IMG/VR virus record: IMGVR_UViG_3300021962_000060
Location: 1 to 64,000 of that record
Length of the DNA stretch: 64,000 nt
Strand: one strand, 5' to 3'
Origin: a virus
The notes beneath the pieces were generated by a model, which saw only the letters and a program-made list of their open reading frames with translations, was not told the DNA's origin and made no database searches. The position numbers and the translations under genes are program-made. Positions 1 through 29,140 of this stretch are shown here, piece by piece; positions within the stretch are counted from its first letter, which is position 1, and every line of letters starts with the position of its first letter.

Positions 1-244
1 TGAAACCGGACTGCCGGTGGAAATCACCGACCTGTTCACCGAAACCGATGCCAAGGCTCCGGCGTACCATCTCGCCCACCGGATCCTGTCCGCCGGCGTG
101 GTTCGCCCCGAATGGGCGAATGTTCAGGTGGTCACGATGCGAACCGGAACCATCACCACCGGAAAGGGTGGAACCATCACCGGCGAAACCACCACCACCG
201 GAAAGGTCGGCACCGTTCGGGTGTTCATCACGCCGGTGTCCTGA
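1..244 (+). CDS. Array family A protein, 5'-truncated by window edge
   Basis: C-terminus (YHLAHRILS..RPEWANV..ITGETTTT..RVFITP) aligns by eye with 706-1089 and 2059-2448; followed by terminator. Confidence 0.8.
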   Translation, partial: ETGLPVEITDLFTETDAKAPAYHLAHRILSAGVVRPEWANVQVVTMRTGTITTGKGGTITGETTTTGKVGTVRVFITPVS

Positions 245-260
245 CCGAACCGAACCACCG

Positions 261-300
261 AAAGGGAACCCCGACCCGAAAGGGTCGGGGTTCTCCCTTT
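261..300. terminator. Intrinsic terminator hairpin
   Basis: AAAGGGAACCCCGACCC-GAAA-GGGTCGGGGTTCTCCCTTT directly after stop at 244. Confidence 0.85.
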
Positions 301-303
301 CCC

Positions 304-367
304 GACCCACTTTCGGGTCTGGCGTACTGACCCACTTTCGGGTCGAGCGTACTGACCCACTTTCGGG
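304..367. repeat. Tandem repeat, 25-bp period, about 2.6 copies
   Basis: GACCCACTTTCGGG starts at 304, 329, 354, linked by TCnnGCGTACT. Confidence 0.9.
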
Positions 368-515
368 CAGGGATCCCTGGAACCAAACGGCTGCCAGATC
401 GAGGTCGGCTGGAGTACTGATCTAACGTTAGACCCGATTGAGTAAACAATCCCTTCCCATCGGCTGAGTCCGATCAGATAAGAAAACTCTAACGTTAGAC
501 CGCAAAATCCTAAAG

Positions 516-560
516 GCGGGTGTACAGCGGGGTCGCTACGCTGGGGAGCCGTACACCCGC
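516..560. repeat. Spacer hairpin, variant II
   Basis: GCGGGTGTAC...GTACACCCGC enclosing GGGTCGCTACGCTGGGGA; paralog at 1847-1892. Confidence 0.85.
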
Positions 561-650
561 TGGGCAGATTGTTGCGATTGCAACTAGTTGAGTGAATGTT
601 GCAATTGCAACGAACACGTTTCTGGGCGGCGCATCGACCCAATCCCAGAA

Positions 651-686
651 ACGGAGAAGCCCCGCCGTTTCCGGCGGGGCTTCCGT
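651..686 (-). terminator. Terminator for 706-1089
   Basis: GAAGCCCCGCCG-TTTC-CGGCGGGGCTTC hairpin downstream of the stop. Confidence 0.75.
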
Positions 687-705
687 TGTTGCGGTGCGGT
701 GCGGG

Positions 706-1089
706 TCAGGCCACGGGTGCGATGACCACGTGTGTCGCACGTGTCGTCGTCGTTTCGCCGGTAATCTCCGTGCGGGTCGCCGTAACGTTCCGCATTCCGA
801 CAACGGCGACATTGTGCCAGTAGGGACGAATTGCGCCGTGTGAGAGCGCACGGTGCGCCGTGTGGTACACCTTGTCCGAACCGTCCACGGGGAACAGGTC
901 AGAAACGTCCACGCTCTTGCCGGTGCGGATGACCGTCAGCACCACGGCGAGAAGAGCGGTGACCCGCGCCCAATTCGCACGGTTGGAACCGTTGCCATTG
1001 TCGCGGTACTCCGTGACCAATTTCTGCGCCTGTTGCGCGTCGGACGGCGACACTTTCGCCGTGGTGAATGTTGCCTGCTTTGTGTCCAT
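706..1089 (-). CDS. Array family A protein (MDTKQ...)
   Basis: AGGAGG SD before ATG at 1089; homologous to 1-244 and 2059-2448. Confidence 0.85.
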   Translation of the reverse strand: MDTKQATFTTAKVSPSDAQQAQKLVTEYRDNGNGSNRANWARVTALLAVVLTVIRTGKSVDVSDLFPVDGSDKVYHTAHRALSHGAIRPYWHNVAVVGMRNVTATRTEITGETTTTRATHVVIAPVA

Positions 1090-1344
1090 CGGACACCTCC
1101 TTGTGTGCCGGTGCGATGACCGGATGAGAAGAGCGTAGCAGAAACAAACGGAGAAACACAACGCTAGGGCAACAATTAGAGAATGTTCACCTAAAGTTTA
1201 CTTACACAATGCAAATAATAATCATTCACTAATTTGCATAATAATGCAGTCGAGAAGATGACGGTTCTATCGTTAGAGCCGGCGACCACACCCCTGGTTT
1301 CTAACGTTAGAAATCTGACTTTATGAGAGGCTTGCATCTGGCCG

Positions 1345-1386
1345 GCTGGTGCGCTATTACGCTCGTTCCTCACTTAGCGCACCAGC
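1345..1386. repeat. Spacer hairpin, variant III
   Basis: GCTGGTGCGCTA...TAGCGCACCAGC with GCTCGTTCCTCAC loop; paralog at 2654-2694. Confidence 0.9.
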
Positions 1387-1478
1387 GGCTCTAACGTTAT
1401 ATACATTATAACTTTATTACACATTTCTAACGATACAAATATTTCTTCTAACGTTGGGAAAAATCTAGTCTAGGGTCG

Positions 1479-1506
1479 TTGACTTTCCCTGACGAGTTAC
1501 TAAGAT
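1479..1506 (+). promoter_or_regulatory. Sigma70/SigA-type promoter for a leaderless transcript
   Basis: TTGACT-N16-TAAGAT; ATG 6 nt after the -10 box, no SD. Confidence 0.7.
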
Positions 1507-1512
1507 GAAGAC

Positions 1513-1713
1513 ATGGCAAAACAAATACACACACTCACCATTCAGTTCCCGACCCGCCAAGCATTAGCAGACTTTGTGCGAGACCATTTCGAGGCTGGTC
1601 TAGCAGTCTACGAGGCTGACGCTCTTGACCCCGAATATGTTGGCAATCCTGGTTCCAACTCATACGTCCTGCGTCGTGCCGGTCACAAGCCTGAAGAAAT
1701 GCGGGTCGCCTAA
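1513..1713 (+). CDS. Cassette hypothetical protein (66 aa)
   Basis: ORF between promoter and terminator hairpins. Confidence 0.8.
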   Translation: MAKQIHTLTIQFPTRQALADFVRDHFEAGLAVYEADALDPEYVGNPGSNSYVLRRAGHKPEEMRVA

Positions 1714-1846
1714 CGACCCTCGTTCATGGTCATGCCGATCCGAAAGAGGGTCGTCATGACCACAACCAAACGTTAGAACCCGCCCCAAAAGGCGGGTCTC
1801 TTTCGGATAACAATTCTAACGTTAGGAATACAGTTCTAACGTTAGG

Positions 1847-1892
1847 GCGGGCGTGCGGTGGGGTCGCTACGCTGGGGAACAAGCACGCCCGC
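1847..1892. repeat. Spacer hairpin, variant II
   Basis: GCGGGCGTGC...GCACGCCCGC; compensatory changes relative to 516-560. Confidence 0.85.
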
Positions 1893-2058
1893 TGGCACGA
1901 TAGTTGCAAACGCAACAAGTTGAGTGAATGTTGTAAATGCAACGAACGCAATAGTTCTAACGATAGGAACCGGACTTTATTCGACCGTCGCGGCACTTCG
2001 GTACAAACGAAAGACCCCGCCCTCTCGGGCGGGGTCTCGTTGCCGTCGCTCTCGTTTG

Positions 2059-2448
2059 TCAGTTTGGCGTGATGAAGACTCGCCCGTGCCCCTTGCTCGT
2101 TGCCGTCTTGCCCGTGATGCTCGTTGCCGTTTCGCCTTCCACGCTCACGAACATAGTCACGCTGAAAGTCTTCCCGAGCATCTTCTCAAACGTGCGAGTC
2201 CGAGACCACGCAACGTGGTACTCGTTGCTCTTGCCAATGAGAGGTCGAACCTCGTTGGTGACTTCCACGCTGTCGCCCGTGATGAGAGCGACGAGGACAG
2301 CAAGGCGAATCGCATCGCCAGCCTTGCGAGTGTCCGAGTCGGGACTTCCCGAGCGATTGCCCAACGGGGGGAGACTTGCGAGGTGAGCGACAGCCTTCGC
2401 CATTGTCGCTTTGTTCACCTTCGCCTTTCGTAGTGTCGTAGTTTCCAT
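2059..2448 (-). CDS. Array family A protein (METTTLRKAKV...)
   Basis: GAAAGG SD; upstream TTGACT-N17-TAGTTT; terminator at 2011-2040; homologous to 706-1089. Confidence 0.85.
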   Translation of the reverse strand: METTTLRKAKVNKATMAKAVAHLASLPPLGNRSGSPDSDTRKAGDAIRLAVLVALITGDSVEVTNEVRPLIGKSNEYHVAWSRTRTFEKMLGKTFSVTMFVSVEGETATSITGKTATSKGHGRVFITPN

Positions 2449-2653
2449 TGCCTTGCCTTTCGTGAATCGGCGTTATTGCCGTACCTAGGAAACTAATCGG
2501 TATTCGCAAGCGAGTCAAGGGGAAATGTTTATTCATAGTCACGCATAACGATACAAGAAACCGGCGAGTCGAATCTCTATCGTTAGAGCCGGCAAGTCGA
2601 GCCTACTTTCTAACGTTAGAGAAATGACTTTATGAAAGCCCTAACGTTAGAGC

Positions 2654-2694
2654 GCTGGTGCGCTATTTGCTCGTTCCTCACGTAGCGCACCAGC
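2654..2694. repeat. Spacer hairpin, variant III
   Basis: GCTGGTGCGCTA...TAGCGCACCAGC flanked by CTAACGTTAG at 2641 and 2699. Confidence 0.9.
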
Positions 2695-2805
2695 CGCTCT
2701 AACGTTAGAGAACAGCAGAAGTTTAGCGTATTTCTAACGATAGGAACTCGACTTTATGAAGGCTCTAACGTTTCAAAAAAACTTTGTAACGATACAAAAC
2801 AATGC

Positions 2806-2834
2806 TTGACCACCTTGTAGGTATCGCATAGGAT
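2806..2834 (+). promoter_or_regulatory. Sigma70/SigA-type promoter
   Basis: TTGACC-N17-TAGGAT. Confidence 0.7.
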
Positions 2835-2873
2835 TATCTCATCGGGAACGGAGTACCGATACGAAAGGAAGTT

Positions 2874-3089
2874 ATGGCAGTTTCACGGGCAGTCAAGGAC
2901 TTGTTCCTGACCGACGAACTCGGTTGGCAAGAAGCAGAACAAATCGAGGCTATCGTTAGCACGGTGTCTCCCGAATGGCAGAACGCTCTGCGGTTCTGTA
3001 TCGTTATCGGTCGCAAGGGCGACAGCGACGCTTTCCGCGACCTCGCCAAGCGTATCCTGCGGAACGAGCAAACGTTAGGGGGTGAGTGA
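2874..3089 (+). CDS. Cassette hypothetical protein (71 aa)
   Basis: GAAAGGAAG SD, promoter upstream. Confidence 0.8.
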   Translation: MAVSRAVKDLFLTDELGWQEAEQIEAIVSTVSPEWQNALRFCIVIGRKGDSDAFRDLAKRILRNEQTLGGE

Positions 3090-3090
3090 G

Positions 3091-3246
3091 ATGCCCAAGC
3101 GTTCACGCTGGTACTACGAAATCCGTTGGCTGGTTCGTGTAACGTTCTGGACAGCCGTATGCCTGATAGCGACGGCGACCCTCGTATCGTTAGCGGTGTT
3201 CCTGACGGACTTCGTGAACTACGTCTGGCACGGTACAGGTCGATAG
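3091..3246 (+). CDS. Small single-pass membrane protein (51 aa; not in ORF track)
   Basis: MPKRSRWYYEIRWLVRVTFWTAVCLIATATLVSLAVFLTDFVNYVWHGTGR*; purine-rich SD; followed by terminator at about 3265-3296. Confidence 0.7.
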   Translation: MPKRSRWYYEIRWLVRVTFWTAVCLIATATLVSLAVFLTDFVNYVWHGTGR

Positions 3247-3323
3247 CGTATCGTTAGACAAGTCGAAACCGGCCCTATCGTTAGGGTCGGTTTTCGCTTC
3301 CGCCATGCCCTAACGTTAGAAGC

Positions 3324-3364
3324 GCCGGTGTTCTAACGTTGATGCTCAACGTTAGAACACCGGC
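3324..3364. repeat. Spacer hairpin, variant I
   Basis: Perfect 19-bp stem GCCGGTGTTCTAACGTTGA, loop TGC. Confidence 0.95.
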
Positions 3365-3510
3365 TTGTCTAACGATAGAAAAGTTATTGTATTTAGTAGA
3401 TTTCTAACGATAGCAATCAGACTTTATCAGAGCTCTAACGTTTCAAAATATTTCTAAAGATTTCCTACAATAGTGTGGAATAGCCTTACTGGTCGCCTAG
3501 AGTTACTGAC

Positions 3511-3795
3511 ATGAACACATACACAGAACACAACAGCCCCGAAGAAGCCATCGCCTACTGCGCCGAGCACAATGACGAACTCTTCCCCGAAGCCAAAGAA
3601 CTCACCATCACCGGCACACTCTCCTGCCCGATGTGCCGTTCCAAAGCGTGGATCATCATGCCTGCCGAGTGGGTCGATGCGTTCCTGTCCGGTGCGTTCG
3701 CACAGGATGCGTTTCCGAACATGACATCCTCACAGCGAGAGCGGTTCATCACAGGGATCTGCCCATCCTGCTGGGGCAAGATGTTCGCACGCTGA
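3511..3795 (+). CDS. Cassette protein with two CxxC motifs (Zn-binding)
   Basis: CPMC...CPSC; leaderless (TAGAGT 7 nt before ATG); terminator at 3806-3836. Confidence 0.85.
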   Translation: MNTYTEHNSPEEAIAYCAEHNDELFPEAKELTITGTLSCPMCRSKAWIIMPAEWVDAFLSGAFAQDAFPNMTSSQRERFITGICPSCWGKMFAR

Positions 3796-3859
3796 ACCAA
3801 CGTTAGAAGCCCGCCCTACGGGGCGGGCTTCTTTCGGCTAGCGACACTAACGTTAGAGC

Positions 3860-3901
3860 GCCGGTGTTCCAACGTTAGCTCGCTAACGTTGGAACACCGG
3901 C
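3860..3901. repeat. Spacer hairpin, variant I
   Basis: GCCGGTGTTCCAACGTTAGC-TC-GCTAACGTTGGAACACCGGC; compensatory T-A to C-G. Confidence 0.95.
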
Positions 3902-4036
3902 TGTGCTAACGTTACAGCCGAACTGGTATTTAGTACGGTTCTAACGATACAGGCTCGACTTTACCTGAGCTCTAACGTTTCAAAATATTTCCTAAATAGT
4001 TGTGAAATGGTCTTTCGGGCTGTTACCATCTTGTCT

Positions 4037-4351
4037 ATGAGCATTCATCACATCACAGACCAAGACATTGTTGATCACCTCGTCTATTCAGGTGCGAGCC
4101 AGTACAGTTGGTATCGTATCTTGGAATGGGACGGCAAGGACGTTCACGTTGAGATGTACACAGGTGAGGGCGGCATCGTTACAAAGTCTTTCCTCATCTC
4201 TCAGTTGCGAGATGTTATCGTTAGCATCCTCAACGATGTGGAACCCTACAGCCCCCGGATTGCGCGAGCAGTCGTAGAAGATGACTTTGACTCGGACGAC
4301 GCGGATGTGGTTCTCCAGATCGCAACGTTAGGGGAGGTGGTCTTCGGCTGA
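4037..4351 (+). CDS. Cassette acidic hypothetical protein
   Basis: Start re-called at ATG 4037 (TACCAT -10 box 7 nt upstream); terminator at 4377-4406. Confidence 0.85.
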   Translation: MSIHHITDQDIVDHLVYSGASQYSWYRILEWDGKDVHVEMYTGEGGIVTKSFLISQLRDVIVSILNDVEPYSPRIARAVVEDDFDSDDADVVLQIATLGEVVFG

Positions 4352-4429
4352 CGAACCCCCAGTCGGTCGAACGTTAGAACCCGCCCTTCGGGGCGGGTTT
4401 CTTTCGACCCGGTACTCTAACGTTAGAGC

Positions 4430-4470
4430 GCCGGTGTTCTAACGTTGACGCTCAACGTTAGAACACCGGC
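4430..4470. repeat. Spacer hairpin, variant I
   Basis: Perfect 19-bp stem, loop CGC. Confidence 0.95.
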
Positions 4471-4604
4471 TGTTCTAACGTTAGAACTTTTACTGACTTT
4501 AGCACATTTCTAACGATAGATAAGTGACTTTATGTCGGCTCTAACGTTTCAAAATAATTTGTAAACATTAGTCTGGAATTGGTAGAACTTGCTAGAATCT
4601 CTCT

Positions 4605-5234
4605 ATGAACAAAACCACCTGTATCTACTGCGGAGTACCGAGAGTCCACCCTGAACGAATCTATCGTTACTGCAACAGCGAAGAGTGCGTGAAGAGGGGA
4701 CAGTCCTACGAATCACCTATCTATGACAGCACCACGGTGACTGACAGCACGGCAGAACTGACCGATACCATCGCCACGCTGGAATCAGAACTAGCAATCG
4801 CTAGCGATAGAATCGCAACCCTCACGGGGCGGGTCGCTGAATTTCAGGCACAAATTGACAAGGGGTTCGCTGATGCCCACAAGGTGTACGACAACGCTAT
4901 CAGCGTCGGTCGGTTTGATTGTCTCCGTTCTATGGTTAGGCAGCATAACGAATTCGTGATGTCTAGTGGGCTATCGACCCACCCTGATGAATACGTTAGA
5001 GACATCTACGGGCAGATGTTGTCACTACTGGAAAGAGACATGAAGAAGGTAGGAATCAGAACATACGGAACGTTAGGCGAGTGGGTCGTTCTCTCTCCTG
5101 ACACCGAATACAACCATGCCCGATACTTGGCAGAGGACAAGGGGACACGCATCTACGAAGGTGAAGTGGTGCGGGTCGGTTACGAAACCGAAACCGGAAT
5201 GGTCATAGAACCAGCCCTCGTTATCAAATACTGA
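4605..5234 (+). CDS. Cassette protein: N-terminal C4 Zn ribbon, coiled coil, GrpE-like C-terminus
   Basis: CIYC..YC..EC; heptad region; VGIRTYGTLGE...VVRVGY...VIEPALV resembles the GrpE head; leaderless TAGAAT. Confidence 0.7.
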   Translation: MNKTTCIYCGVPRVHPERIYRYCNSEECVKRGQSYESPIYDSTTVTDSTAELTDTIATLESELAIASDRIATLTGRVAEFQAQIDKGFADAHKVYDNAISVGRFDCLRSMVRQHNEFVMSSGLSTHPDEYVRDIYGQMLSLLERDMKKVGIRTYGTLGEWVVLSPDTEYNHARYLAEDKGTRIYEGEVVRVGYETETGMVIEPALVIKY

Positions 5235-5299
5235 ATCCAACGTTAGAGGCCGGCTCCGAAGCCGGCTCTCTTTCGCTGGCATCCCCTAACGTTAGAAGC

Positions 5300-5340
5300 G
5301 CCGGTGTTCTAACGTTGAGCATCAACGTTAGAACACCGGC
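5300..5340. repeat. Spacer hairpin, variant I
   Basis: Perfect 19-bp stem, loop GCA. Confidence 0.95.
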
Positions 5341-5474
5341 TGTGCTAACGTTAGAGAATCGCATAGATTGAGTGAACTTCTAACGATAGAGGCTCGACTT
5401 TATCCAAGCTCTAACGTTTCAAAATAATCTAGAAATAGTAGTGAAATGGTTAGTGGAGTCGCTAAGATGTCGCT

Positions 5475-5855
5475 ATGACCTACAACCTCAGATTCACCTA
5501 TCGACCCCTTTCCGATTCGTTGATGATTTACGTTGATAACGATAGATTCACGAACGCTGATACCGTGATTCAAGCCCAGTTGGGCGATGACCTAACATTG
5601 GAGATTGCCAACATTGACGGATTCCCGCTGTTCTCCGGTGTTCAGATTATGAACGCATCGTTCATTCCGGTGTGGACGGAACCCCTTGACAAGTTCCTAA
5701 CAATACAACTGCTGGACGCATTCGTTGATACCCTCTCCCGTCTTTCGTGGAAAGCCAACGAAACGGAACCGGAGAACATCTTTGAGCGAATCATTGGGGA
5801 ACGCTGGACGATGCTGGCAGAACGGAAAGACCTTGCTATCACGATGCCCGACTGA
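5475..5855 (+). CDS. Cassette hypothetical protein (126 aa)
   Basis: Leaderless (TAAGAT 6 nt before ATG); terminator at 5881-5910. Confidence 0.85.
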   Translation: MTYNLRFTYRPLSDSLMIYVDNDRFTNADTVIQAQLGDDLTLEIANIDGFPLFSGVQIMNASFIPVWTEPLDKFLTIQLLDAFVDTLSRLSWKANETEPENIFERIIGERWTMLAERKDLAITMPD

Positions 5856-5933
5856 ATCGACCCACTCGGCACAAACGTTAGAGGCCGCCCTTCGGGGCGG
5901 CTCTCTTTCGCCATCATCCCCTAACGTTAGAGC

Positions 5934-5974
5934 GCCGGTGTTCTAACGTTGACGCTCAACGTTAGAACACCGGC
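5934..5974. repeat. Spacer hairpin, variant I
   Basis: Identical to 4430-4470. Confidence 0.95.
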
Positions 5975-6154
5975 TGTTCTAACGTTAGAAGATCTCTAAC
6001 GTTTAGTGAGTTTCTAACGATAGGAGCTCGACTTTATGAGCTCTCTAACGTTTCAAATTTCTTTCTAACGATACAAGAAAGTCGGGAAAGAATGTCGGAA
6101 AGGGTAGGGTAGGTGCTAGTCTTTCTCTTGTCGGAAGGGCAGTCCTCCCGACAG

Positions 6155-6170
6155 TGTTCCACGTGGAACA
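6155..6170. promoter_or_regulatory. parS: parS-consensus palindrome
   Basis: TGTTCCACGTGGAACA matches the bacterial chromosomal parS consensus TGTTYCACGTGRAACA. Confidence 0.7.
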
Positions 6171-6191
6171 CTCCAAACGAAAGGTACAAGA

Positions 6192-6467
6192 ATGTCGGAC
6201 TTTGAGATTGTGGATGCGAAGAGCGTTCAGTTCGTGAAGAGGGGTCGCAAGTCGGTCGCTGATCCCAAGTTGGTGGAAGCCCTCAAGAAACTGCCTAACG
6301 GCAAGGCGATGGTCATCGCAAGCCTCAAGCAGGATCCCAAGGCGGACACTTACGCTAACGATAAGGCGCGGGTCGCTAGTCAGATCCGCACGGCTTGTAA
6401 GTCGGCAGGGCTGGACAGTTTCTCCATTCGGTGGACTGAGACCGGCGTTCCGCAGGTCGTTCGCTGA
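6192..6467 (+). CDS. Array family B small basic protein (FVKRGRKS), putative DNA-binding
   Basis: GAAAGG SD; clear similarity to 7306-7599 and 7921-8211. Confidence 0.9.
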   Translation: MSDFEIVDAKSVQFVKRGRKSVADPKLVEALKKLPNGKAMVIASLKQDPKADTYANDKARVASQIRTACKSAGLDSFSIRWTETGVPQVVR

Positions 6468-6545
6468 ATCGACCCACTCAGGGCAAACGTTAGGGGTTGG
6501 GCTTGCCGCCCGGCCCCTTTCGTTCGCTCCGGCCTCTAACGTTAG

Positions 6546-6589
6546 GGCAGGTGTTCTAACGTTAGCACGCTAACGTTAGAACACCTGCC
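6546..6589. repeat. Spacer hairpin, variant I
   Basis: GGCAGGTGTTCTAACGTTAGC-AC-GCTAACGTTAGAACACCTGCC; compensatory C-G to A-T. Confidence 0.95.
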
Positions 6590-6718
6590 GCGCTAACGTT
6601 AGCGTGATGCTCCAATTGAGTACACATCTAACGATACAAGAAATCCGCATAATAGTTCTTATTTCACCAATTCGACCGGCTAGGATAGTCTCACCATCCA
6701 ATAGAGAAAGGTCAAGTA

Positions 6719-7003
6719 ATGGAAAGAGTTAGTGGACAACTGAGCATCCCTACTGAGAACTGGGTCATCTTCTGTAAATACATGGATGTTCTGACCGACA
6801 TGATCCCAGTGATCGACGCACATGATAAGATTATTTCCGAAATCCCCTCCATTCTTCTGGGTGTTCCCCAGAAATTGGCAAACATCATCGTTCACCATTT
6901 GATCGGCTTGGACATTATGGGGAACATTGGTTACGCCAAGGAATTAGTCGAAGAAGCACTGTCCTATCATTACAAGATGCCGATGACGCTTGTGATTGAC
7001 TGA
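6719..7003 (+). CDS. Cassette hypothetical protein (94 aa)
   Basis: GAAAGG SD; terminator at 7022-7051. Confidence 0.8.
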   Translation: MERVSGQLSIPTENWVIFCKYMDVLTDMIPVIDAHDKIISEIPSILLGVPQKLANIIVHHLIGLDIMGNIGYAKELVEEALSYHYKMPMTLVID

Positions 7004-7075
7004 TAGTCGGCTGAAACGTTAGAACCCGCCCGAAAGGGCGGGTTTCTTTCGCATCGGAGTCCTAACGTTAGAAGC

Positions 7076-7116
7076 GCCGGTGTTCTAACGTTAGATGCTA
7101 ACGTTAGAACACCGGC
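7076..7116. repeat. Spacer hairpin, variant I
   Basis: Perfect 19-bp stem, loop ATG. Confidence 0.95.
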
Positions 7117-7305
7117 TGGGCTAACGTTAGAGGAGCTCTAACGTTTAGTGCGGTTCTAACGATAGACACTCGACTTTATGAGCTGTCTAACGTTTCAAAA
7201 TATTTTCTAACGATACAACAAAGTCCTAGAATAGTAGGGGAACGCCTAGTGGAACTGGTAGTGTCTTACTTGTCGGGGAACAAACGAACCGACAGAGAGG
7301 TAGAA

Positions 7306-7599
7306 ATGTCCAATCCGAAGTCCGGCGACGAGTTTGAGATTGTCTCGTCGTCATCTATCCAGTTCGTGAAGCGTGGTCGTAAGTCACTCGCAGACCCGAA
7401 ACTCATCGAACAACTCAAGATGCTCAACAAGGGACAAGCGATGGTGATTCGCAAGTACCAGCAAGACCCGAAGTCGGCAACCTACGCTAACGATAAGGCT
7501 CGCGTCGCCAGCCAGATTCGGACAGCGTGTAAGACCGCCAACCTCGTCGGATTCAGCATCGTCTGGTCGCCCGAGGGAATCCCGCAGGTCAAACTCTGA
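7306..7599 (+). CDS. Array family B protein
   Basis: GAGAGG SD before ATG 7306; FVKRGRKS...YANDKARVASQIRTAC. Confidence 0.9.
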   Translation: MSNPKSGDEFEIVSSSSIQFVKRGRKSLADPKLIEQLKMLNKGQAMVIRKYQQDPKSATYANDKARVASQIRTACKTANLVGFSIVWSPEGIPQVKL

Positions 7600-7687
7600 C
7601 CTAGCGTTAGAGAGGGAGCCGCCCCAACGTTAGGGGCGGCTTTCTTTCGACCCAGCTCTCTAACGTTAGACGCTAACGTTAGACGGA

Positions 7688-7724
7688 CGGGCGTAACGTT
7701 AGAAACGCTCTAACGTTACGCCCG
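7688..7724. repeat. Spacer hairpin (diverged)
   Basis: CGGGCGTAACGTTAGA-AACGC-TCTAACGTTACGCCCG. Confidence 0.9.
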
Positions 7725-7920
7725 CGCTAACGTTAGAACCTTATCCATAAAATTTTGTATCCAATTCCTAACACAAATACCATCAATCGACTTTATCTAA
7801 AATCTAATCCTAATGTTATAAAAACTTTATAAGGCCTAACGTTAGAACCTTATCTAAAGGAAATGCCTCGACTTTCGCCGAGGCATTCCTTAGGACTAGG
7901 CTTTGGGTTTGTGTTCGGAA

Positions 7921-8211
7921 TTACCGAACGATTTGGGGAATGCCCTCAGGTGACCAAAGGATTCGGAATTCCGTAACCTTTGCCTCACGGCAAGCGGTGC
8001 GGATTTGCGAGGCAATGCGAGCCTTTTCGTTTGCGAAATTCGCAGACTTTGGATCGACCGCAAGGCTTTTCACAGCCATTGCCTTGCCCACTCCGAGGGT
8101 TTTGAGTGCCTCAACGAGTGCGGGATTGACTTTGGATTTGCGTCCCCGCTTGACGAAGGAAATTTCGGTGGAATTGACCACCTCAAATTCCGGGTTGTTT
8201 GATGTTGCCAT
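7921..8211 (-). CDS. Array family B protein (inverted cassette)
   Basis: AAAGG SD; extended -10 TGCTATGAT at 8274-8282; terminator at 7857-7892. Confidence 0.9.
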   Translation of the reverse strand: MATSNNPEFEVVNSTEISFVKRGRKSKVNPALVEALKTLGVGKAMAVKSLAVDPKSANFANEKARIASQIRTACREAKVTEFRILWSPEGIPQIVR

Positions 8212-8432
8212 TGTGTTGCCTTTCTTTGGGATTTGATTGGAATTTGTGTGAATAGCCTTGTCCACGAATTCCATCATAGCATAGTGAAATTGTGAATAAA
8301 AATTCTGGGTATTTGTAGGTCATTGCAGATGCAATAAGTCGAGCTTTAGGTCGAGCTTTGTGCCGGCCTTGTTTGTAACGTTAGAGCTCATAGGCAAAGG
8401 CTAACGTTAGAGAAAATCTAACGTTAAGCAGG

Positions 8433-8473
8433 CGGGTGCTCTAACGTTAGATTTTCTAACGTTAGAGCACCCG
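8433..8473. repeat. Last spacer hairpin of the array
   Basis: CGGGTGCTCTAACGTTAGA-TTT-TCTAACGTTAGAGCACCCG. Confidence 0.95.
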
Positions 8474-9072
8474 TTCTAACGTTAGAGCTTTAAATAAAAA
8501 ATTTAATGCAAATCCTAATCCTTATTCTTACAATAACTTTACGGGGAACTTTTCAATTGATCTTTTCAATCAATTATGCTCAACCGCTCATAAAGCCAGG
8601 GGAATGCTCGACCTTACCCCTGTATCTATCCCTACTGATAGGGACACCTATAACCGCCGGCTAACCCGATCATATTTCTGACCGGAATTCCTGAACAATA
8701 CCGATTATTGCCGGCTACAAAGAACCAAATTTCATTGATGTAATCAACCAGAATATTTCTTCTGATAGTCTGATTTGATAATCAAGATTATTACTACATA
8801 GATTTTTTCTAATATGATCCAACCTTTATACGGAGCTCATTTTGAGTCCGATCAAACACTTTTCTATATAGGCTGCTCTAACCAAAACACTAACCGGCCG
8901 GCTAAGGAGATACCTTCCCAGTGTCAATATTACTAGAGAGAACTATAACACACCCCAGGTATATTTTTCGCTAGAAAACACACAAAAACCAAAACAAACA
9001 AACAAAAAAACCTGAGAACACCCATCAATTTAACAAAAATTGAACATTATTGAGCGTAAAACACAAGCCTGT

Positions 9073-9137
9073 AAAGGACGTATTGCCTTTAGATAGACGT
9101 ATTGCCTTATCAAGGAAGTATTGTCTTGTAAAGGATC
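9073..9137. repeat. Three short direct repeats GTATTG(C/T)CTT
   Basis: GACGTATTGCCTT twice plus GAAGTATTGTCTT, about 19-20 bp period. Confidence 0.7.
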
Positions 9138-9200
9138 TATTTGATCTTAAAGGGTCTATCGGTTCTTATAGATGTTCTCAGGTTATTGATCTATGGTTCT

Positions 9201-9398
9201 TTAGTCTTCTATTTCTTCTATGTCTGTGAGACTATATATTTCTTTCCATTTAGCCCCGCAATTTTGACATTCAACAACCTGAGGAATCTGATCATATTCA
9301 GCATAAACAATATGGATAGCCATAATGTCCTCTGAACCACAATACAAACAGTTATACGGATGCTTAACATACCGTCTTTTCGTAAAATCATCAATCAT
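9201..9398 (-). CDS. Small Zn-ribbon protein
   Basis: CLYC...CQNC. Confidence 0.75.
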   Translation of the reverse strand: MIDDFTKRRYVKHPYNCLYCGSEDIMAIHIVYAEYDQIPQVVECQNCGAKWKEIYSLTDIEEIED

Positions 9399-9781
9399 TT
9401 CTTACCCCCAAAAGTTCCAACAGTAGCCCAAAACTTGTAGTCATTTTTTATTTCGTCCCACTCGTCCTGATCAAAAAGAGGCAAAGAATCATAATTAACC
9501 TCATAATTCACAATCCTATACCATCCCATACCCTCGATAAAAGCCTGGAAAAAGTCCTGAAGATTAGGAACATAAGTGAAAACCTTATAGGCATCAAAAA
9601 GACTCAGTTCTTCCGAAACCTTAGTGATATCCTGAATATCAACCCCGATCCCAATAAAGGCCGGATAAAAAGACGCACCCTCACCGTTATCAGTAACGCA
9701 AAGATCACACCAAATAAAATCAAAATCCCCCTCAGGGAAAGTAACAGTAATAATATCCGGCATGTAAACAGTTTTACTCAT
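9395..9781 (-). CDS. Hypothetical protein
   Basis: Start re-called after GAGG; coupled to neighbours. Confidence 0.65.
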   Translation of the reverse strand: MSKTVYMPDIITVTFPEGDFDFIWCDLCVTDNGEGASFYPAFIGIGVDIQDITKVSEELSLFDAYKVFTYVPNLQDFFQAFIEGMGWYRIVNYEVNYDSLPLFDQDEWDEIKNDYKFWATVGTFGGKK

Positions 9782-10037
9782 CATCATCCTCTGACTCAGG
9801 GAAGTCTTCCCAATCAACATAAATTTCATGAGGCTTACAGTCAACCAAAGAAAAACCATAATGATCTTTGATAAAGACCTCGGCATTTGTAATAATATAA
9901 TCCTCAGCCGTAGCGTAGTCTACAATCTCCTCTAACTCAAGATAAGACCTATGACTGACAGTCATATAGTCAAACACAAACGTGACATTAGCTGTATATT
10001 CATATACCCATTCAGGCTCAGTCATTTCTAAATCCAT
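9774..10037 (-). CDS. Acidic hypothetical protein
   Basis: ORF in packed minus-strand operon. Confidence 0.65.
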   Translation of the reverse strand: MDLEMTEPEWVYEYTANVTFVFDYMTVSHRSYLELEEIVDYATAEDYIITNAEVFIKDHYGFSLVDCKPHEIYVDWEDFPESEDDDE

Positions 10038-10469: not shown

Positions 10470-10726
10470 CAGTGTTTCACCGGCTCAACACTCGGCAAAC
10501 CAAACAGAAATCCAGGCTCATTACCCTCTTCATCAGAAGATAATTCAATCTGAATAACCTCCCCATTCATTAACTTAACTTTGAAGCAAGGCCAGTAGTC
10601 TTTTCCTCCCCAATCATCATCTTCTTCGACGATTCCAAATCCGACTATTACACTACCTACCAATTGACCGTAATAATCTTCCCAAAACTGCTTGTAACTA
10701 CGCTTCATTTCCTTATCTCTTTCCAT
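10469..10726 (-). CDS. Hypothetical protein, tandem paralog of 10209-10469
   Basis: SSDEEGNEPGFLFGLP motif. Confidence 0.8.
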   Translation of the reverse strand: MERDKEMKRSYKQFWEDYYGQLVGSVIVGFGIVEEDDDWGGKDYWPCFKVKLMNGEVIQIELSSDEEGNEPGFLFGLPSVEPVKH

Positions 10727-13425: not shown

Positions 13426-13428
13426 TAG

Positions 13429-13501
13429 CACCTCAAGTAGGACTTGAACCTACAACCTACAGATTAGAAGTCTGTTGCTCTATCCATTAAGCTATTGAGG
13501 T
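13429..13501 (-). tRNA. tRNA-Arg(TCT)
   Basis: Acceptor ACCTCAA/TTGAGGT, anticodon loop CTTCTAA, GGTTCAAGTCC T-arm; no encoded CCA. Confidence 0.92.
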
Positions 13502-13510
13502 ATTTAATTA

Positions 13511-13735
13511 CTAAAAACTATATTCTTGAAGATCAATAATTGTCCCAACTCTACTGCTAACACAACTATCACAAATATAAATACGACTAAAAGTCATATC
13601 ATATTCAGAACCATAGTTACCCACAAAATCGAGGCTGGTTCCTTTGTAGATGTTATCATCACTTTTGAAAAGACACTCCAACTCTTTGAAGCACACAAAG
13701 CAAAGTACATTTCCATTATTTGTTTTATTTTCCAT
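13511..13735 (-). CDS. Small Zn-binding protein between tRNAs
   Basis: CFVC...GNYGSEYD...ICDSC. Confidence 0.7.
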   Translation of the reverse strand: MENKTNNGNVLCFVCFKELECLFKSDDNIYKGTSLDFVGNYGSEYDMTFSRIYICDSCVSSRVGTIIDLQEYSF

Positions 13736-13737
13736 AG

Positions 13738-13809
13738 TATCTCAGGTAGGATTTGAACCTACAACCAATAGATTAAAAGTCTACTGCTCTACCATTGAGC
13801 TACTGAGAT
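13738..13809 (-). tRNA. tRNA-Lys(TTT)
   Basis: Acceptor ATCTCAG/CTGAGAT, loop CTTTTAA, GGTTCAAATCC. Confidence 0.92.
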
Positions 13810-13813
13810 AAAT

Positions 13814-13925
13814 TAGAATAGGCAGAGAACCTTTGTTGCAATGGCAAACTTTGATATCTTGCCGAAGCAAAGATACAGGTTCTCCTTAATGTTTCAGAAA
13901 GGGGTAAAACACTTAGCCTATTCTA
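13814..13925 (-). ncRNA. Unknown structured RNA, copy 2 (about 112 nt)
   Basis: TAGAATAGGC/GCCTATTCTA closing stem, GAGAACCT/AGGTTCTC, TTCG-capped hairpin; 4 nt upstream of tRNA-Lys. Confidence 0.7.
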
Positions 13926-13937
13926 AACCTTTTGTGG

Positions 13938-14504
13938 TTAGCAGGCCAAAGACCAAGGCTTCCAACCACACAAACCTTTTTCTTCTCTTGAAGAGTAAAG
14001 TTTGTAAGCAAACTCCAAGTTTATTCTAGGATCAAACATATCGTCTGGATGACTATAACCCATTTGGCTCAGCCATTCAGAGTGAATTTGGTTAATCTGA
14101 GTCAAGCCGGCATCGTGACCATTCCAAGCGTCAGTTGTGCAACGACTTTCTTTCCATATAATCTGAGAAACATTAGGCCATTCTTCTTCTGTAAACCCAA
14201 CATCAATAGCTAGGTCATGCCATTCACCACACTTGCCATACTTTTCTCTGAGTTGCTCAACAGTTAAAGTTTCTTCTGCTTCAATCGCAACATTCACAGA
14301 ATCAATATCAACAGGTGGAATCGTTATGACAGGCATAGTTGTTGTAGTTGTTGTAGTGGTTTCCACCTCTGTAGAAGAAACTACATAATATCCACTATCA
14401 CCTTCAATAGGATTATTTTTCAAATCATCATTTGATGCTAATACTGATATGCCAGTCAATCCTAAACTGATACCAATAATTGTAATTATAATAATACGTT
14501 TCAT
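13938..14504 (-). CDS. Secreted or membrane-anchored lysozyme-like (SLT) transglycosylase
   Basis: N-terminal signal/TM, Thr-rich linker, IIWKESRC (catalytic E), GLTQIN, DPRINLEFA, GWKPWS. Confidence 0.8.
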   Translation of the reverse strand: MKRIIIITIIGISLGLTGISVLASNDDLKNNPIEGDSGYYVVSSTEVETTTTTTTTMPVITIPPVDIDSVNVAIEAEETLTVEQLREKYGKCGEWHDLAIDVGFTEEEWPNVSQIIWKESRCTTDAWNGHDAGLTQINQIHSEWLSQMGYSHPDDMFDPRINLEFAYKLYSSREEKGLCGWKPWSLAC

Positions 14505-14672
14505 ATTTGCTCCTTAAGTAGTGTGTCTAAACGAAAACCGTTTCGGCATCGCTAAATCAGTAGCAAAACGAAATTGTCTACAAACCAAAATCGCTTTACT
14601 AGTAAGTTATATCAATAAGCATCACCTCCATATAAGTACATCTCTCTATTATACCATTTATACAAGCACTAG

Positions 14673-14744
14673 TACCCCTGCGTGGAATCGAACCACGTTT
14701 ATCATTTTATAAGAATGACATCCTAACCAGTAGATGACAGGGGC
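14673..14744 (-). tRNA. tRNA-Ile(TAT)
   Basis: Acceptor GCCCCTG/CAGGGGT, anticodon arm TCATT-CTTATAA-AATGA, GGTTCGATTCC. Confidence 0.85.
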
Positions 14745-14755
14745 ATTTACTTGAA

Positions 14756-14968
14756 TTATTTGTTATTTATCCAAACGTATGCCTGGTTGACCAAAGAACC
14801 GTAAAGATACTTATAGTCAATAAGCCAGCATCTCAAGTTAAATTCTTTTTGATCTCTCAAATAAAACATAAACGATCTATAAGAGATAATATCAACAGAT
14901 GAGGCGTTGGCTTCTATCAATTTGAGAATAATTCTATTATAGATTTTATCATTAATAATTGTTGACAT
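14756..14968 (-). CDS. Hypothetical protein
   Basis: GGAGG SD. Confidence 0.55.
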   Translation of the reverse strand: MSTIINDKIYNRIILKLIEANASSVDIISYRSFMFYLRDQKEFNLRCWLIDYKYLYGSLVNQAYVWINNK

Positions 14969-15458: not shown

Positions 15459-15483
15459 AGTTTCTCTCCTTAGATTTTAAGTT

Positions 15484-29023: not shown

Positions 29024-29140
29024 GTCGAGACCGGCCCTCTAACGTTAGAGGGGTTCTAACGTTACAGATGCTCTAACGTTACAGAGGAAATACATCAAAG
29101 ATAGGGCCGGCTTTTAGAAAGAACAAGCTCGAGATTTTAC
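29024..29140. repeat. Isolated remnant of the array spacer module
   Basis: CTAACGTTA(G/C) at 29039, 29056, 29073 (17-bp spacing), preceded by TCGAGACCGGCCCT; GCTCGAGATTTTA downstream. Confidence 0.85.

What the first reader, a model, noticed from the sequence alone, without database searches (positions are those of the whole stretch)
1..8490. Phage gene-cassette array delimited by a conserved hairpin and CTAACGTTAG spacer module
Seen: 13 units, each a small ORF (one unit has two) with its own terminator and, where visible, its own promoter. Units occur in both orientations. A typical spacer reads stop-AACGTTAG-GC terminator-CTAACGTTAG-hairpin-CTAACGTTAG-CTAACGATAG-CTCGACTTTAT-CTAACGTTTCAAAA-promoter. 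Every interval has exactly one hairpin (516, 1345, 1847, 2654, 3324, 3860, 4430, 5300, 5934, 6546, 7076, 7688, 8433). Cargo is unrelated or paralogous while spacers are near-identical. Knowledge: this parallels integron arrays (CTAAC/GTTAG resemble attC R''/R' cores) and the promoter-stem-loop cassettes of T4-like phages. It differs from attC: no unpaired central spacer next to the R box, R' usually lacks the final pyrimidine, and no integrase is in the window. Inference: an undescribed platform for acquiring, shuffling, inverting and co-regulating single early genes, probably in first-injected or terminal-repeat DNA.
Basis: partly seen in the sequence, partly recalled or inferred. Interest (0 to 1): 0.95.

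Follow-up and report, generated by a model that had tools for sequence, protein, structure and literature searches.

The report
Palindrome-studded phage early-gene cassette array
An uncultured ~100-kb phage, probably of actinobacteria, keeps about 13 small unknown genes as separate promoter-to-terminator units divided by one repeated spacer full of 10-bp palindromes, and relatives have gained, lost, moved and flipped these units at the spacers, much as T4-type phages do and unlike an integron.

Summary
Bases 1-8490 hold 13 gene units separated by a repeated 240-460 bp spacer. CTAACGTTAG occurs 32 times there, against 0.06 expected in the whole window. Each of the 13 intervals has one strong hairpin.

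It is not a misassembly: at least ten independent contigs carry the same array-to-body junction.

The refutation test failed. Relatives differ by whole cassettes (gain, loss, new slot, inversion), and the joints lie in the spacer. One cassette is 95.6% identical between phages whose flanks are 67-78% identical.

The integron reading is not supported. There is no tyrosine, serine or Y1-HUH recombinase. The hairpins are perfect, with none of the bulges that attC sites have, and the cassettes carry their own promoters.

Best reading: an early "host-takeover" region whose spacer is terminator + operator array + promoter and also serves as a seam for ordinary homologous recombination, like T4-type PeSLs.

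New here:
- The box changes with lineage (CTAACGTTAG, GTAATATTAC, TTAACGTTAA, GTAACTTTA).
- Three paralogs of an unknown basic protein always close the array.
- Array genes have GC3 of 0.49-0.76, against 0.18-0.34 in 11 of 12 body genes sampled.

The nearest cultured relatives are Streptomyces BE-cluster phages, which keep a similar small-gene set in 11-12 kb terminal repeats. This scan has noted similar palindrome-punctuated arrays in other phages.

The parts
1..244 (+). a1: 3' part of a gene cut by the contig end; paralog of a2
   Evidence: Open frame to the stop at 244. 50% identity to a2 over 50 aa.
245..705 (.). Interval 1 (convergent). Holds the a1 terminator (266-293), three tandem mini-hairpin repeats (about 300-370), boxes at 422 and 489, a type-B hairpin (516-556), GTTGC..GCAAC palindromes (563-611) and the a2 terminator (656-683).
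706..1089 (-). a2: 127-aa basic protein of unknown function. Homologs sit in either orientation in other arrays.
   Evidence: No Pfam or PHROG family.
1090..1512 (.). Interval 2 (divergent). Holds the AT-rich a2 promoter region, boxes at 1267, 1301, 1391, 1427 and 1448, GACTTTAT at 1317, a type-C hairpin (1345-1386) and the promoter TTGACT-16-TAAGAT (1479-1506).
1513..1713 (+). a3: 66 aa. Its ATG lies 6 nt after the -10 hexamer, so it looks leaderless.
1714..2058 (.). Interval 3 (convergent). Holds a terminator, boxes at 1816 and 1836, a type-B hairpin (1847-1892), GTTGC..GCAAC palindromes, CTAACGATAG at 1957 and the a4 terminator (2011-2038).
2059..2448 (-). a4: 129-aa basic protein of unknown function.
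2449..2873 (.). Interval 4 (divergent). Holds boxes at 2577, 2610, 2641, 2699 and 2734, a type-C hairpin (2654-2694), GACTTTAT at 2626 and 2750, the promoter-proximal box at 2765 and the promoter TTGACC-17-TAGGAT (2806-2834).
2874..3246 (+). Two-gene unit a5 (2874-3089) and a5' (3091-3246, predicted membrane helix). Conserved in L053, L054, L060 and L063.
3247..3510 (+). Spacer module with hairpin 3324-3364.
3511..3795 (+). a6: Cys-rich 94-aa protein, leaderless-like. Homologs are on the opposite strand in L060, L061 and L067.
3796..4036 (+). Spacer module with hairpin 3860-3901.
4037..4351 (+). a7: acidic 104-aa protein. It lies after a paralog in L054 and before one in L064.
4352..4604 (+). 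Spacer module with hairpin 4430-4470.
4605..5234 (+). a8: 209 aa with an N-terminal Cys cluster, leaderless-like. It follows a5' directly in L053 and lies between paralogs in L064 and L070.
5235..5474 (+). Spacer module with hairpin 5300-5340.
5475..5855 (+). a9: acidic 126-aa protein, leaderless-like.
5856..6191 (+). Spacer module with hairpin 5934-5974, followed by a roughly 70-nt leader holding a stem-loop and the palindrome GTGTTCCACGTGGAACAC (about 6153-6172).
6192..6467 (+). Paralog 1 of the core family: 91 aa, pI 9.9, invariant RGRK.
6468..6718 (+). Spacer with four perfect boxes, hairpin 6546-6589 and an atypical promoter part.
6719..7003 (+). a11: 94-aa cassette that is absent from relatives L053 and G001.
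7004..7305 (+). Spacer with four perfect boxes and hairpin 7076-7116, followed by a leader with a stem-loop.
7306..7599 (+). Paralog 2: 97 aa, pI 9.9.
7600..7920 (.). Convergent interval. Holds a terminator, boxes at 7660, 7673, 7727 and 7836, hairpin 7688-7724, an AT-rich stretch (7741-7835) and the paralog 3 terminator.
7921..8211 (-). Paralog 3: 96 aa, pI 10.1. It points the same way as the main body.
8212..8490 (.). Paralog 3 promoter region and the closing box cluster (8377-8485), with hairpin 8433-8473. GC content drops to about 35% beyond this point.
29030..29090 (.). Three boxes inside a GGCCGG/CCGGCC inverted repeat, in an intergenic gap of the main body. Conserved in about ten related contigs.

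Best explanation
The stretch is the GC-rich part of the rightward early ('host-takeover' type) block of an uncultured ~100-kb lytic phage, probably of an actinobacterium.

Each small gene is its own transcription unit. It has a host sigma-70/SigA-type promoter, and five of the genes look leaderless. A GC-rich intrinsic terminator follows each gene.

The conserved spacer between units does three things.
1. It insulates neighbouring units, through the terminator plus one long perfect hairpin.
2. It carries 5-8 copies of a lineage-specific 10-bp palindrome at fixed spacings upstream of the promoter. These act as operators for one sequence-specific dimeric protein that switches the whole set together. 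The best candidate is the conserved trio of small basic paralogs at the inner end of the array.
3. Because it is repeated about a dozen times, it gives general homologous recombination a seam. Unequal or inter-phage crossovers at that seam add, delete, move and, through the palindromic parts, invert whole cassettes.

Shown: the anatomy, the lineage-specific boxes, cassette turnover with joints in the module, and the absence of a known site-specific recombinase.

Inferred: early timing, what binds the boxes, whether regulation is positive or negative, and the role of the hairpin.
For: Anatomy and statistics.

Not a chimera: the array-to-body junction recurs in G001/G002, L053, L059, L060, L063, L070, L078 and in G004-G006.

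A trans-acting reader of the boxes:
- The box differs by lineage while the spacer grammar stays the same. It is CTAACGTTAG in about 25 loci, GTAATATTAC in about 12, TTAACGTTAA in L052 and GTAACTTTA in L079, L080 and L091.
- Boxes also sit at one intergenic site of the main body, and that site is conserved in about ten relatives.
- Spacings between boxes are fixed, with peaks at 13-14, 16-17, 20-21, 23, 31 and 35-36 bp.
- Perfect boxes are densest (four per spacer) around the three paralogs.

Candidate reader: the paralog trio is the only protein family shared by all arrays. It has more than 426 metagenomic homologs, no Pfam family, pI 9.9-10.1 and an invariant RGRK motif.

Cassette flux:
- L050 9430-9861 is 95.6% identical to L046 6410-6839, while the flanks are 67-78% identical. 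The cassette is absent from L049, which is 92% identical to L050. The filled site is flanked by a 25-bp direct repeat that ends in a box.
- Against L053 (80-90% identity), a6, a7 and a11 are missing or elsewhere and an extra gene is present.
- The a11 crossover maps just after the box that follows the hairpin.
- Homologs of a6, a7, a8 and a2 occupy other slots or the other strand in other arrays.

No recombinase: PF00589, PF00239 and PF01797 are absent from G000, G001 and G002.

Early timing and host:
- Array genes have GC3 of 0.49-0.76. Eleven of the twelve body genes sampled have 0.18-0.34. The twelfth, next to the array, has 0.42.
- The phage carries tRNAs for AGA, AAA, AUA and UUA.
- In five genes the -10 hexamer lies 6-7 nt before the ATG.
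- The DNA polymerase and terminase are closest (39-42% identity) to those of Streptomyces BE-cluster phages.
- In the BE-cluster phage Coruscant, the small-gene terminal repeat has a terminator, palindrome and promoter module in its intergenic gaps.
Against: - No expression data exist, so early timing, promoters and terminators rest on sequence alone.
- The strict sigma-70 scan found no more promoter-like sites than shuffles give (5 against 7.8).
- The paralog fold has no informative match: Foldseek found nothing and the best VIA-align Z was 5.5. Its link to the boxes is circumstantial and is confounded with phylogeny.
- A tree of module cores pairs orthologous modules between A and L053 and clusters only weakly by genome (17 label changes against 19.5 in shuffles). 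Frequent homogenisation within a genome is therefore not shown.
- Homologous recombination is inferred from joints in shared sequence. A sequence-specific enzyme that acts at boxes would leave the same traces.
- Neither the perfect symmetry of the hairpins nor their conserved GGGYGTAA clamp is needed for a simple operator or terminator.
Confidence: 0.6

Rival explanations
1. An integron-like or otherwise dedicated site-specific platform. An unrecognised recombinase, possibly encoded in the missing 13% of the genome or of a new family, cuts and joins at the boxes or hairpins and so captures, excises and inverts cassettes.
For: - Indel joints coincide with the 3' edge of a box in two independent events.
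- There is exactly one hairpin per interval.
- The hairpin has a clamp (GGGYGTAA) that is conserved across lineages with different boxes.
- Cassettes occur in both orientations.
Against: - There is no tyrosine, serine or Y1-HUH recombinase in three records.
- The hairpins are perfect and lack extrahelical bases or an unpaired spacer.
- The cassettes carry their own promoters and terminators.
- The two mapped joints lie at different boxes of the module. One follows the hairpin and the other follows TTTAGT.
- Joints inside the longest identical stretch are what homologous exchange gives anyway.
Confidence: 0.07
2. The boxes are docking sites for a host protein (a transcription factor or nucleoid protein) that the phage recruits or titrates. 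The array would then be a sponge or decoy, or a host-sensing switch, rather than the target of a phage regulator.
For: - Immediate-early promoters must work before any phage protein is made.
- The promoter-proximal box is centred near -60 and the next near -91 from the leaderless ATG. These are positions typical of activator sites (the inference from class I activation geometry rests on my own knowledge).
Against: - Closely similar phages use four or more different boxes. A co-evolving phage-encoded reader explains this more simply.
- No known actinobacterial operator that I can recall matches CTAACGTTAG (memory only).
- The box is not depleted in the main body: 10 observed against 8-16 expected.
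Confidence: 0.15
3. The repeats serve DNA handling at a genome end rather than transcription. They could be packaging or terminase recognition sites, an injection stop as in T5 first-step-transfer DNA, or replication priming within a long terminal repeat.
For: - The arrays lie at contig ends in G000, G001 and G002.
- The nearest cultured relatives have 11-12 kb terminal repeats full of small ORFs (PMC5764925, PMC7650747).
- T5's first-injected DNA is rich in repeats and palindromes (my own knowledge).
Against: - The boxes keep fixed distances to each promoter and recur once per gene.
- In the 100%-complete relative G004 the array is internal (82.5-90.3 kb of 105.7 kb) and no end repeats were called.
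- A box cluster also lies between genes at 29 kb in the main body.
Confidence: 0.1
4. Assembly artefact: a GC-rich foreign fragment or a collapsed repeat wrongly joined to an AT-rich phage.
For: - GC content jumps from about 50% to about 35% at 8.5 kb.
- The array sits at the contig end, and repeats of this kind break assemblies. Many related contigs are short.
Against: - The same junction, with homologous genes on both sides, occurs in at least ten contigs from independent assemblies at 68-92% identity.
- The box recurs in the AT-rich body.
- AT-rich body-like sequence is interleaved with boxes at 7741-7835.
Confidence: 0.01

Closest known systems
PeSL (promoter-early stem-loop) regulatory cassettes of T4-type phages (Arbiol et al. 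2010, PMC2839356; Comeau et al. 2014, PMC4122927)
   Same: - Repeated intergenic motifs that combine a sigma-70-like early promoter, an AT-rich upstream part and a stem-loop terminator.
- They are concentrated in hyperplastic regions of small ORFan genes.
- Indels and replacements between relatives have their joints in the motif and are ascribed to homologous recombination.
   Different: - This is not a T4-like phage.
- The module is several times longer (240-460 bp).
- It carries 5-8 copies of a lineage-specific 10-bp palindrome at fixed spacings.
- It has a separate perfect 16-21 bp hairpin in addition to a canonical terminator.
- The array is compositionally distinct from the rest of the genome.
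- PeSL mini-circles could not be looked for here.
Long direct terminal repeats of Streptomyces BE-cluster phages (Stanwilliamsviridae; Hughes et al. 2018, PMC5764925; Hardy et al. 2020, PMC7650747), and by analogy the SPO1 host-takeover module and the T5 pre-early region
   Same: - Nearest cultured relatives by DNA polymerase and terminase (39-42% identity).
- Genome much more AT-rich than expected for the host, with phage tRNAs.
- 20-25 small unknown ORFs in one block next to a thymidylate synthase gene.
- In Coruscant, 12 copies of a GGCGCC-S-GGCGCC palindrome all lie in intergenic gaps of that block, and a conserved TTGCAT..TGTAAGCT promoter-like motif recurs in about ten gaps.
   Different: - No protein of the array has a detectable homolog in 50,697 GenBank phages.
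- Terminal redundancy is not shown here.
- The palindrome is different and is present in many copies per spacer.
- About 9 kb, not 1.5 kb, separate thyX from the array in the complete relative.
- The papers do not describe the repeated spacers.
Integron cassette arrays (attC sites and IntI)
   Same: Single-gene cassettes separated by structured repeats that contain CTAAC/GTTAG-like cores, with cassette content variable between relatives.
   Different: - No integrase.
- Perfect hairpins without extrahelical bases.
- Cassettes with their own promoters and terminators, and in both orientations.
- No common Pc promoter or attI site.
   Same: Dozens of copies of one short site in intergenic gaps of an actinobacteriophage. 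The site sequence is lineage-specific and co-evolves with a phage DNA-binding protein that controls many transcription units at once.
   Different: - Stoperators are asymmetric 13-bp sites, oriented with transcription and spread over the whole genome of temperate phages.
- Here the sites are palindromic and clustered 5-8 per spacer in one region of a probably lytic phage.
- Their reader is unidentified.

Membership tests
Integron | IntI-type tyrosine recombinase next to the array | tested here: not met
   PF00589 found nothing in G000 (87% complete), G001 or G002, while the control genomes all matched. There is also no PF00239 or PF01797.
Integron | attC sites: imperfect hairpins with extrahelical bases, an unpaired central spacer and R''/R' cores | tested here: not met
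   Nine hairpins are perfect 16-21 bp stems with 2-5 nt loops, and four are 10-12 bp stems with large loops. None is bulged.
Integron | Match to an attC covariance model (IntegronFinder) | not testable with these tools
   No attC model was on hand. The Rfam scan of 1-9500 gave nothing above any gathering score.
Integron | Promoterless, co-oriented cassettes read from one common promoter | tested here: not met
   Each unit has its own -10/-35-like elements and terminator. Three units are inverted.
PeSL-type regulatory cassettes | Repeated intergenic motif combining an early sigma-70-like promoter with a stem-loop terminator | tested here: met
   The spacer alignment shows a conserved terminator, hairpin, AT-rich part and -10 element. 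Activity was not tested.
PeSL-type regulatory cassettes | Lies in a hyperplastic region of small ORFan genes | tested here: met
   The array proteins have no Pfam family and no PHROG of known function. Content varies between relatives.
PeSL-type regulatory cassettes | Indels, replacements and moves between relatives with joints in the motif | tested here: met
PeSL-type regulatory cassettes | Circular excision products (mini-circles) | not testable with these tools
PeSL-type regulatory cassettes | Host genome is a T4-type myovirus, with the motif homologous to PeSLs | tested here: not met
   The core genes are closest to Streptomyces BE-cluster siphoviruses. The resemblance is therefore functional and does not reflect shared descent.
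Long-DTR early region (BE-cluster-like) | Core replication and packaging genes related to BE-cluster phages | tested here: met
   DnaE-like polymerase at 39% identity and terminase at 41-43% identity over at least 90% of their length.
Long-DTR early region (BE-cluster-like) | Block of about 20 small unknown ORFs with a repeated spacer, downstream of a thymidylate synthase gene | tested here: met
   Coruscant 1-14 kb. In G004, thyX at 72.9 kb is followed by rightward genes and then the array. The right end of G000 is collinear with that region.
Long-DTR early region (BE-cluster-like) | Direct terminal repeat shown by defined ends and 2x read depth | not testable with these tools
   No reads were available. 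IMG/VR calls all records linear without end repeats, which a collapsed long repeat would also give.
Stoperator-like operator arrays | Many copies of one short lineage-specific site in intergenic DNA | tested here: met
Stoperator-like operator arrays | Identified cognate DNA-binding protein | tested here: inconclusive
   The paralog trio is a candidate only. It has no family, no solved relative and no clear fold match.

The most novel reading that the evidence does not exclude
The boxes and the single perfect hairpin per spacer are the sites of a dedicated cassette-exchange system that needs no integrase. The conserved trio of small basic RGRK proteins, a family with no known relatives, would read the boxes and direct cutting and joining, or strand exchange, at their edges. 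The phage would then actively reshuffle and trade single early genes rather than rely on chance homologous crossovers.
Probability: 0.07. Interest if true: 0.9.

Novelty: new variant of a known kind. Interest (0 to 1): 0.55.

Why it matters
Early phage genes are where host-takeover and anti-defence functions sit, and they are the least understood part of phage genomes.

This group shows unusually clearly how such genes are packaged and traded. More than 426 homologs of its core protein occur in metagenomes, and none in 50,697 deposited phage genomes. Genes are held as self-contained units, and a shared spacer serves as both a switchboard and a recombination seam.

Three points make it a good system for study:
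- The spacer palindrome changes with lineage while the rest of the spacer grammar stays. That gives a natural specificity-swap series for finding the protein that reads it.
- A new small basic protein family is always present in three copies.
- The genome uses two codon dialects. Array genes fit a GC-richer host. Body genes fit the phage's own tRNAs. This is a testable model for how AT-rich phages get started in GC-richer hosts.

The kind of element, however, is already known from T4-type phages, and this scan has met similar arrays elsewhere.

Tried and rejected
- Integron reading: rejected, as set out in the membership test.
- Chimeric assembly: rejected, because the junction is conserved in many contigs.
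- Frequent homogenisation of modules within a genome: I expected it from the identical hairpin stems (four in A, three in L053). A tree of 28 module cores instead paired orthologs between A and L053 and gave only weak clustering by genome, so I do not claim it.
- Avoidance of AACGTT in the main body, as a sign of restriction or of spurious regulator sites: not found, with 10 observed against 8-16 expected.
- Simple 10.5-bp helical phasing of boxes: the spacings are fixed but not periodic.
- Fold of the paralog. The AF2 model has pLDDT 88. Foldseek against the PDB gave no match with E <= 0.001. VIA-align wide gave a best Z of 5.5, on generic small alpha/beta folds. The PDB sequence profile search, Pfam, PHROGs and the ESM Atlas gave no named relative.
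- Rfam on 1-9500: nothing above gathering scores.
- Literature search for the motif string: only unrelated primer sequences.
- Automated leaderless-start count over all loci: too noisy to use. Only the five manual cases in the window are reported.
No homodimer test of the paralog was run.

Full report
**What the window is.** The window is bases 1-64000 of a 90,921-bp linear IMG/VR virus record rated 87% complete. The first 8.5 kb have about 50% G+C and the remaining 82 kb about 35%. The body is transcribed leftward almost throughout. It encodes a DnaE-like polymerase, a DnaB helicase, an exonuclease, a DNA methyltransferase, glycosyltransferases, a terminase and tail proteins. The polymerase and terminase are closest, at 39-42% identity, to those of Streptomyces BE-cluster phages such as Samisti12, Mildred21 and Coruscant.

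- CTAACGTTAG occurs 33 times in the window against 0.06 expected. 32 copies are in 1-8490.
- I count 14 ORFs in 13 units, three of them leftward.
- Nine hairpins are perfect inverted repeats of 16-21 bp with 2-5 nt loops. Each arm holds a box-like sequence behind a GC clamp.
- The four hairpins next to the leftward genes a2 and a4 are of two other types, with 10-12 bp stems and large conserved loops.
- Stems differ between copies but stay perfectly complementary. For example, TTCTAAC/GTTAGAA becomes TTCCAAC/GTTGGAA at 3860, and GCCGG/CCGGC becomes GGCAGG/CCTGCC at 6546. The symmetry itself is therefore maintained.
- An alignment of the seven rightward-to-rightward spacers gives one grammar: stop codon, AACGTTAG, GC-rich terminator with TCTTTCG tail, box, hairpin, box, TTTAGT, CTAACGATAG, GACTTTAT, CTAACGTTTCAAAA, an AT-rich stretch, then a -10 hexamer.
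- In five genes (1513, 3511, 4037, 4605, 5475) the -10 hexamer lies 6-7 nt before the ATG, which suggests leaderless mRNAs. The others have leaders with Shine-Dalgarno sequences.

**It is not an assembly artefact.** A scan of IMG/VR for two nearby boxes found two contigs with full arrays (G001 and G002, 99.85% identical to each other). It also found about ten contigs that share only the triple-box site at 29 kb of the main body. Searching with the one protein family common to the arrays found four more viral contigs and 41 metagenome contigs. In all contigs long enough to show it, a GC-rich array abuts the same AT-rich leftward genes.

**Where the array sits in the genome.** In the 100%-complete relative G004 (105.7 kb) the array is internal, at 82.5-90.3 kb. 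It is preceded by about 9 kb of rightward AT-rich genes that start with thyX. The right end of the present record is collinear with that region and stops inside thyX. The record is therefore broken within the rightward block. The missing 13% is that block plus the outer part of the array.

**The boxes point to a trans-acting reader.** The spacer grammar, including the TTTAGT and CTTTATG elements and the GGGYGTAA clamp of the hairpin, is kept in all lineages. The 10-bp palindrome is not:
- CTAACGTTAG in about 25 loci;
- GTAATATTAC, with GTAACATTAC variants, in about 12 loci;
- TTAACGTTAA in L052;
- GTAACTTTA in L079, L080 and L091;
- something else in L081 and L082.

The common form is NTAA-NN-TTAN. 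A site that is swapped as a whole across dozens of copies per genome, keeps fixed spacings, and is reused at a conserved intergenic site in the body is best explained as the target of one sequence-specific dimeric protein that co-evolves with it.

**The candidate reader.** The only protein shared by all arrays is a family of about 95-aa basic proteins (pI about 10) with an invariant RGRK motif. It is always present as two rightward copies and one leftward copy at the inner end of the array. Perfect boxes are densest around these genes. The family has more than 426 metagenomic members but:
- no Pfam or PHROG family;
- no match in 50,697 GenBank phages;
- no solved relative;
- no clear structural neighbour for a confident model of pLDDT 88.

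Its assignment as the box reader is a hypothesis. I rate it at about one in three.

**Cassette turnover is real.**
- L049 and L050 are about 92% identical. L050 has an extra 393-bp unit holding a 47-aa ORF with its spacer. That unit is 95.6% identical to one in L046, whose flanks are only 67-78% identical to L050. It also sits in a different slot there: before paralog 1 in L046, between paralogs 1 and 2 in L050. The filled site is bounded by a 25-bp direct repeat that ends in a box, and the empty site has one copy.
- Against L053 (80-90% identical), the present array has a6 and a7 where L053 has none. It lacks a gene that L053 has between a8 and a9, and it has a11 between paralogs 1 and 2. A three-way alignment places the a11 crossover directly after the box that follows the hairpin.
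- A cluster map of 23 arrays shows a conserved frame (paralog, variable slot, paralog, inverted paralog, body). Homologs of a6, a7, a8 and a2 appear in other slots, and a6 and a2 on the other strand.

**How the turnover happens.**
- No tyrosine or serine recombinase and no Y1 transposase is encoded in three records.
- The hairpins lack every structural mark of attC sites.
- The two joints that could be mapped lie at different boxes of the module.
- The joints lie inside the longest identical stretches, where homologous exchange would put them.
- The perfect palindromes read the same in both orientations, so they could also support inversions. This last point is inference.

This is the mechanism proposed, and supported experimentally, for the PeSL cassettes of T4-type phages (PMC2839356, PMC4122927). 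I could not look for circular products because the read tools did not complete. A tree of module cores did not show strong homogenisation within genomes, so recombination between modules of one genome is not frequent on the A-to-L053 time scale.

**Why I call the block early.**
- Array genes have GC3 of 0.49-0.76.
- Eleven of the twelve body genes sampled have GC3 of 0.18-0.34. The twelfth, 9395-9886 next to the array, has 0.42.
- The phage encodes tRNAs for AGA, AAA, AUA and UUA, the A-ending codons its body genes need.
- Every array found is GC-enriched over its genome.

A simple reading is that array genes are tuned to the tRNA pool of a GC-richer host and can be translated at once, while the rest waits for the phage tRNAs. 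The likely host is actinobacterial, given the nearest relatives, the leaderless-type starts and the Atlas labels.

**Parallel with BE-cluster phages.** BE-cluster phages are likewise about 20% lower in G+C than their hosts. They carry many tRNAs and keep 20-25 small unknown ORFs in 11-12 kb direct terminal repeats (PMC5764925, PMC7650747). In Coruscant I found 12 copies of a GGCGCC-S-GGCGCC palindrome, all in intergenic gaps of that repeat, most of them beside a terminator. A conserved TTGCAT..TGTAAGCT promoter-like motif recurs in about ten gaps, and the repeat is GC-enriched. The papers do not mention this. The present array is thus probably the counterpart of that terminal-repeat block. Whether it is terminally repeated here is open.

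**Comparison and verdict.** The element works like PeSL cassettes, but it is not homologous to them and is more elaborate. It is probably the positional counterpart of the BE-cluster terminal-repeat genes. Its box arrays recall the stoperators of cluster A mycobacteriophages (from my own knowledge). It is not an integron.

Earlier notes of this scan describe similar palindrome-punctuated early cassette arrays in several other uncultured phages and reach the same reading. Those notes are unchecked and I did not use them as evidence.

I rate it a new variant of a known kind. The particular features of interest are lineage-specific multi-copy operators, a new triplicated basic protein family, and a two-dialect codon usage.

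Noticed in passing
window 1-8490 against 9000-64000; tRNAs at 13428-15998: The genome uses two codon dialects. Array genes have GC3 of 0.49-0.76, and 11 of 12 body genes sampled have 0.18-0.34. The phage tRNAs (Arg-TCT, Lys-TTT, Ile-TAT, Leu-TAA) read exactly the A-ending codons that the body genes need.
   Followed up: partly
window 29030-29090: Three CTAACGTTAG-type boxes lie inside a GGCCGG/CCGGCC inverted repeat, in a 430-bp intergenic gap downstream of the terminase operon. The site is conserved in about ten related contigs.
   Followed up: partly
window 6153-6172; also L046 7047, L053 3483 and 10 further loci: A single-copy palindrome, T(T/C)(T/C)CACGTG(G/A)(G/A)A, sits in the leader about 35 nt before one paralog gene. 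It is kept in both major box lineages, so it does not depend on the box type. It may be an autoregulatory RNA hairpin or a second operator.
   Followed up: partly
window 563-611 and 1904-1945; G001 (L041 about 10570-10600, minus strand): A second palindrome type, GTTGC(A/G)-N2-3-TGCAAC, accompanies the a2/a4-type cassettes. In G001 it overlaps the promoter of the a2 homolog, which there points the other way.
   Followed up: no
window 300-370: Three tandem copies of GTACTGACCCACTTTCGGG follow the a1 terminator. Each copy is a small hairpin. Function unknown.
   Followed up: no
window 7741-7835 and 8490-8560: AT-rich stretches with short aatcctaa-type repeats and CTTTAT elements lie on both sides of paralog 3, at the point where rightward and leftward transcription converge. 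The same is seen in G001 and L046. This could mark a terminus or a replication or packaging site.
   Followed up: no
G000 9001-90921: TTCGAA is absent from 82 kb (5-17 expected), and ATCGAT and TACGTA occur only 4 times each. GCCGGC occurs 37 times (6-30 expected, depending on model order). This suggests restriction avoidance and a separate over-represented palindrome.
   Followed up: partly
G000 about 90400-90650 (beyond the window): The divergent region between the leftward body and thyX carries a run of GCTTAGC/GCTAAGC repeats. It may be the switch region for both blocks.
   Followed up: no
L094 (Streptomyces phage Coruscant, NC_070782.1, 1-12000): The 12-kb terminal repeat of this cultured phage holds 12 intergenic copies of the palindrome GGCGCC-S-GGCGCC. 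It also has about 10 intergenic copies of a TGTAAGCT -10-like motif with TTGCAT-type -35 elements, and it is GC-enriched. The genome papers do not mention this.
   Followed up: partly
window array proteins: Most cargo proteins are strongly acidic (pI 4.2-5.8 for seven of them, four below 5), while the three paralogs, a2, a4 and a5' are basic (pI about 10). Small acidic early proteins are often inhibitors or DNA mimics.
   Followed up: no
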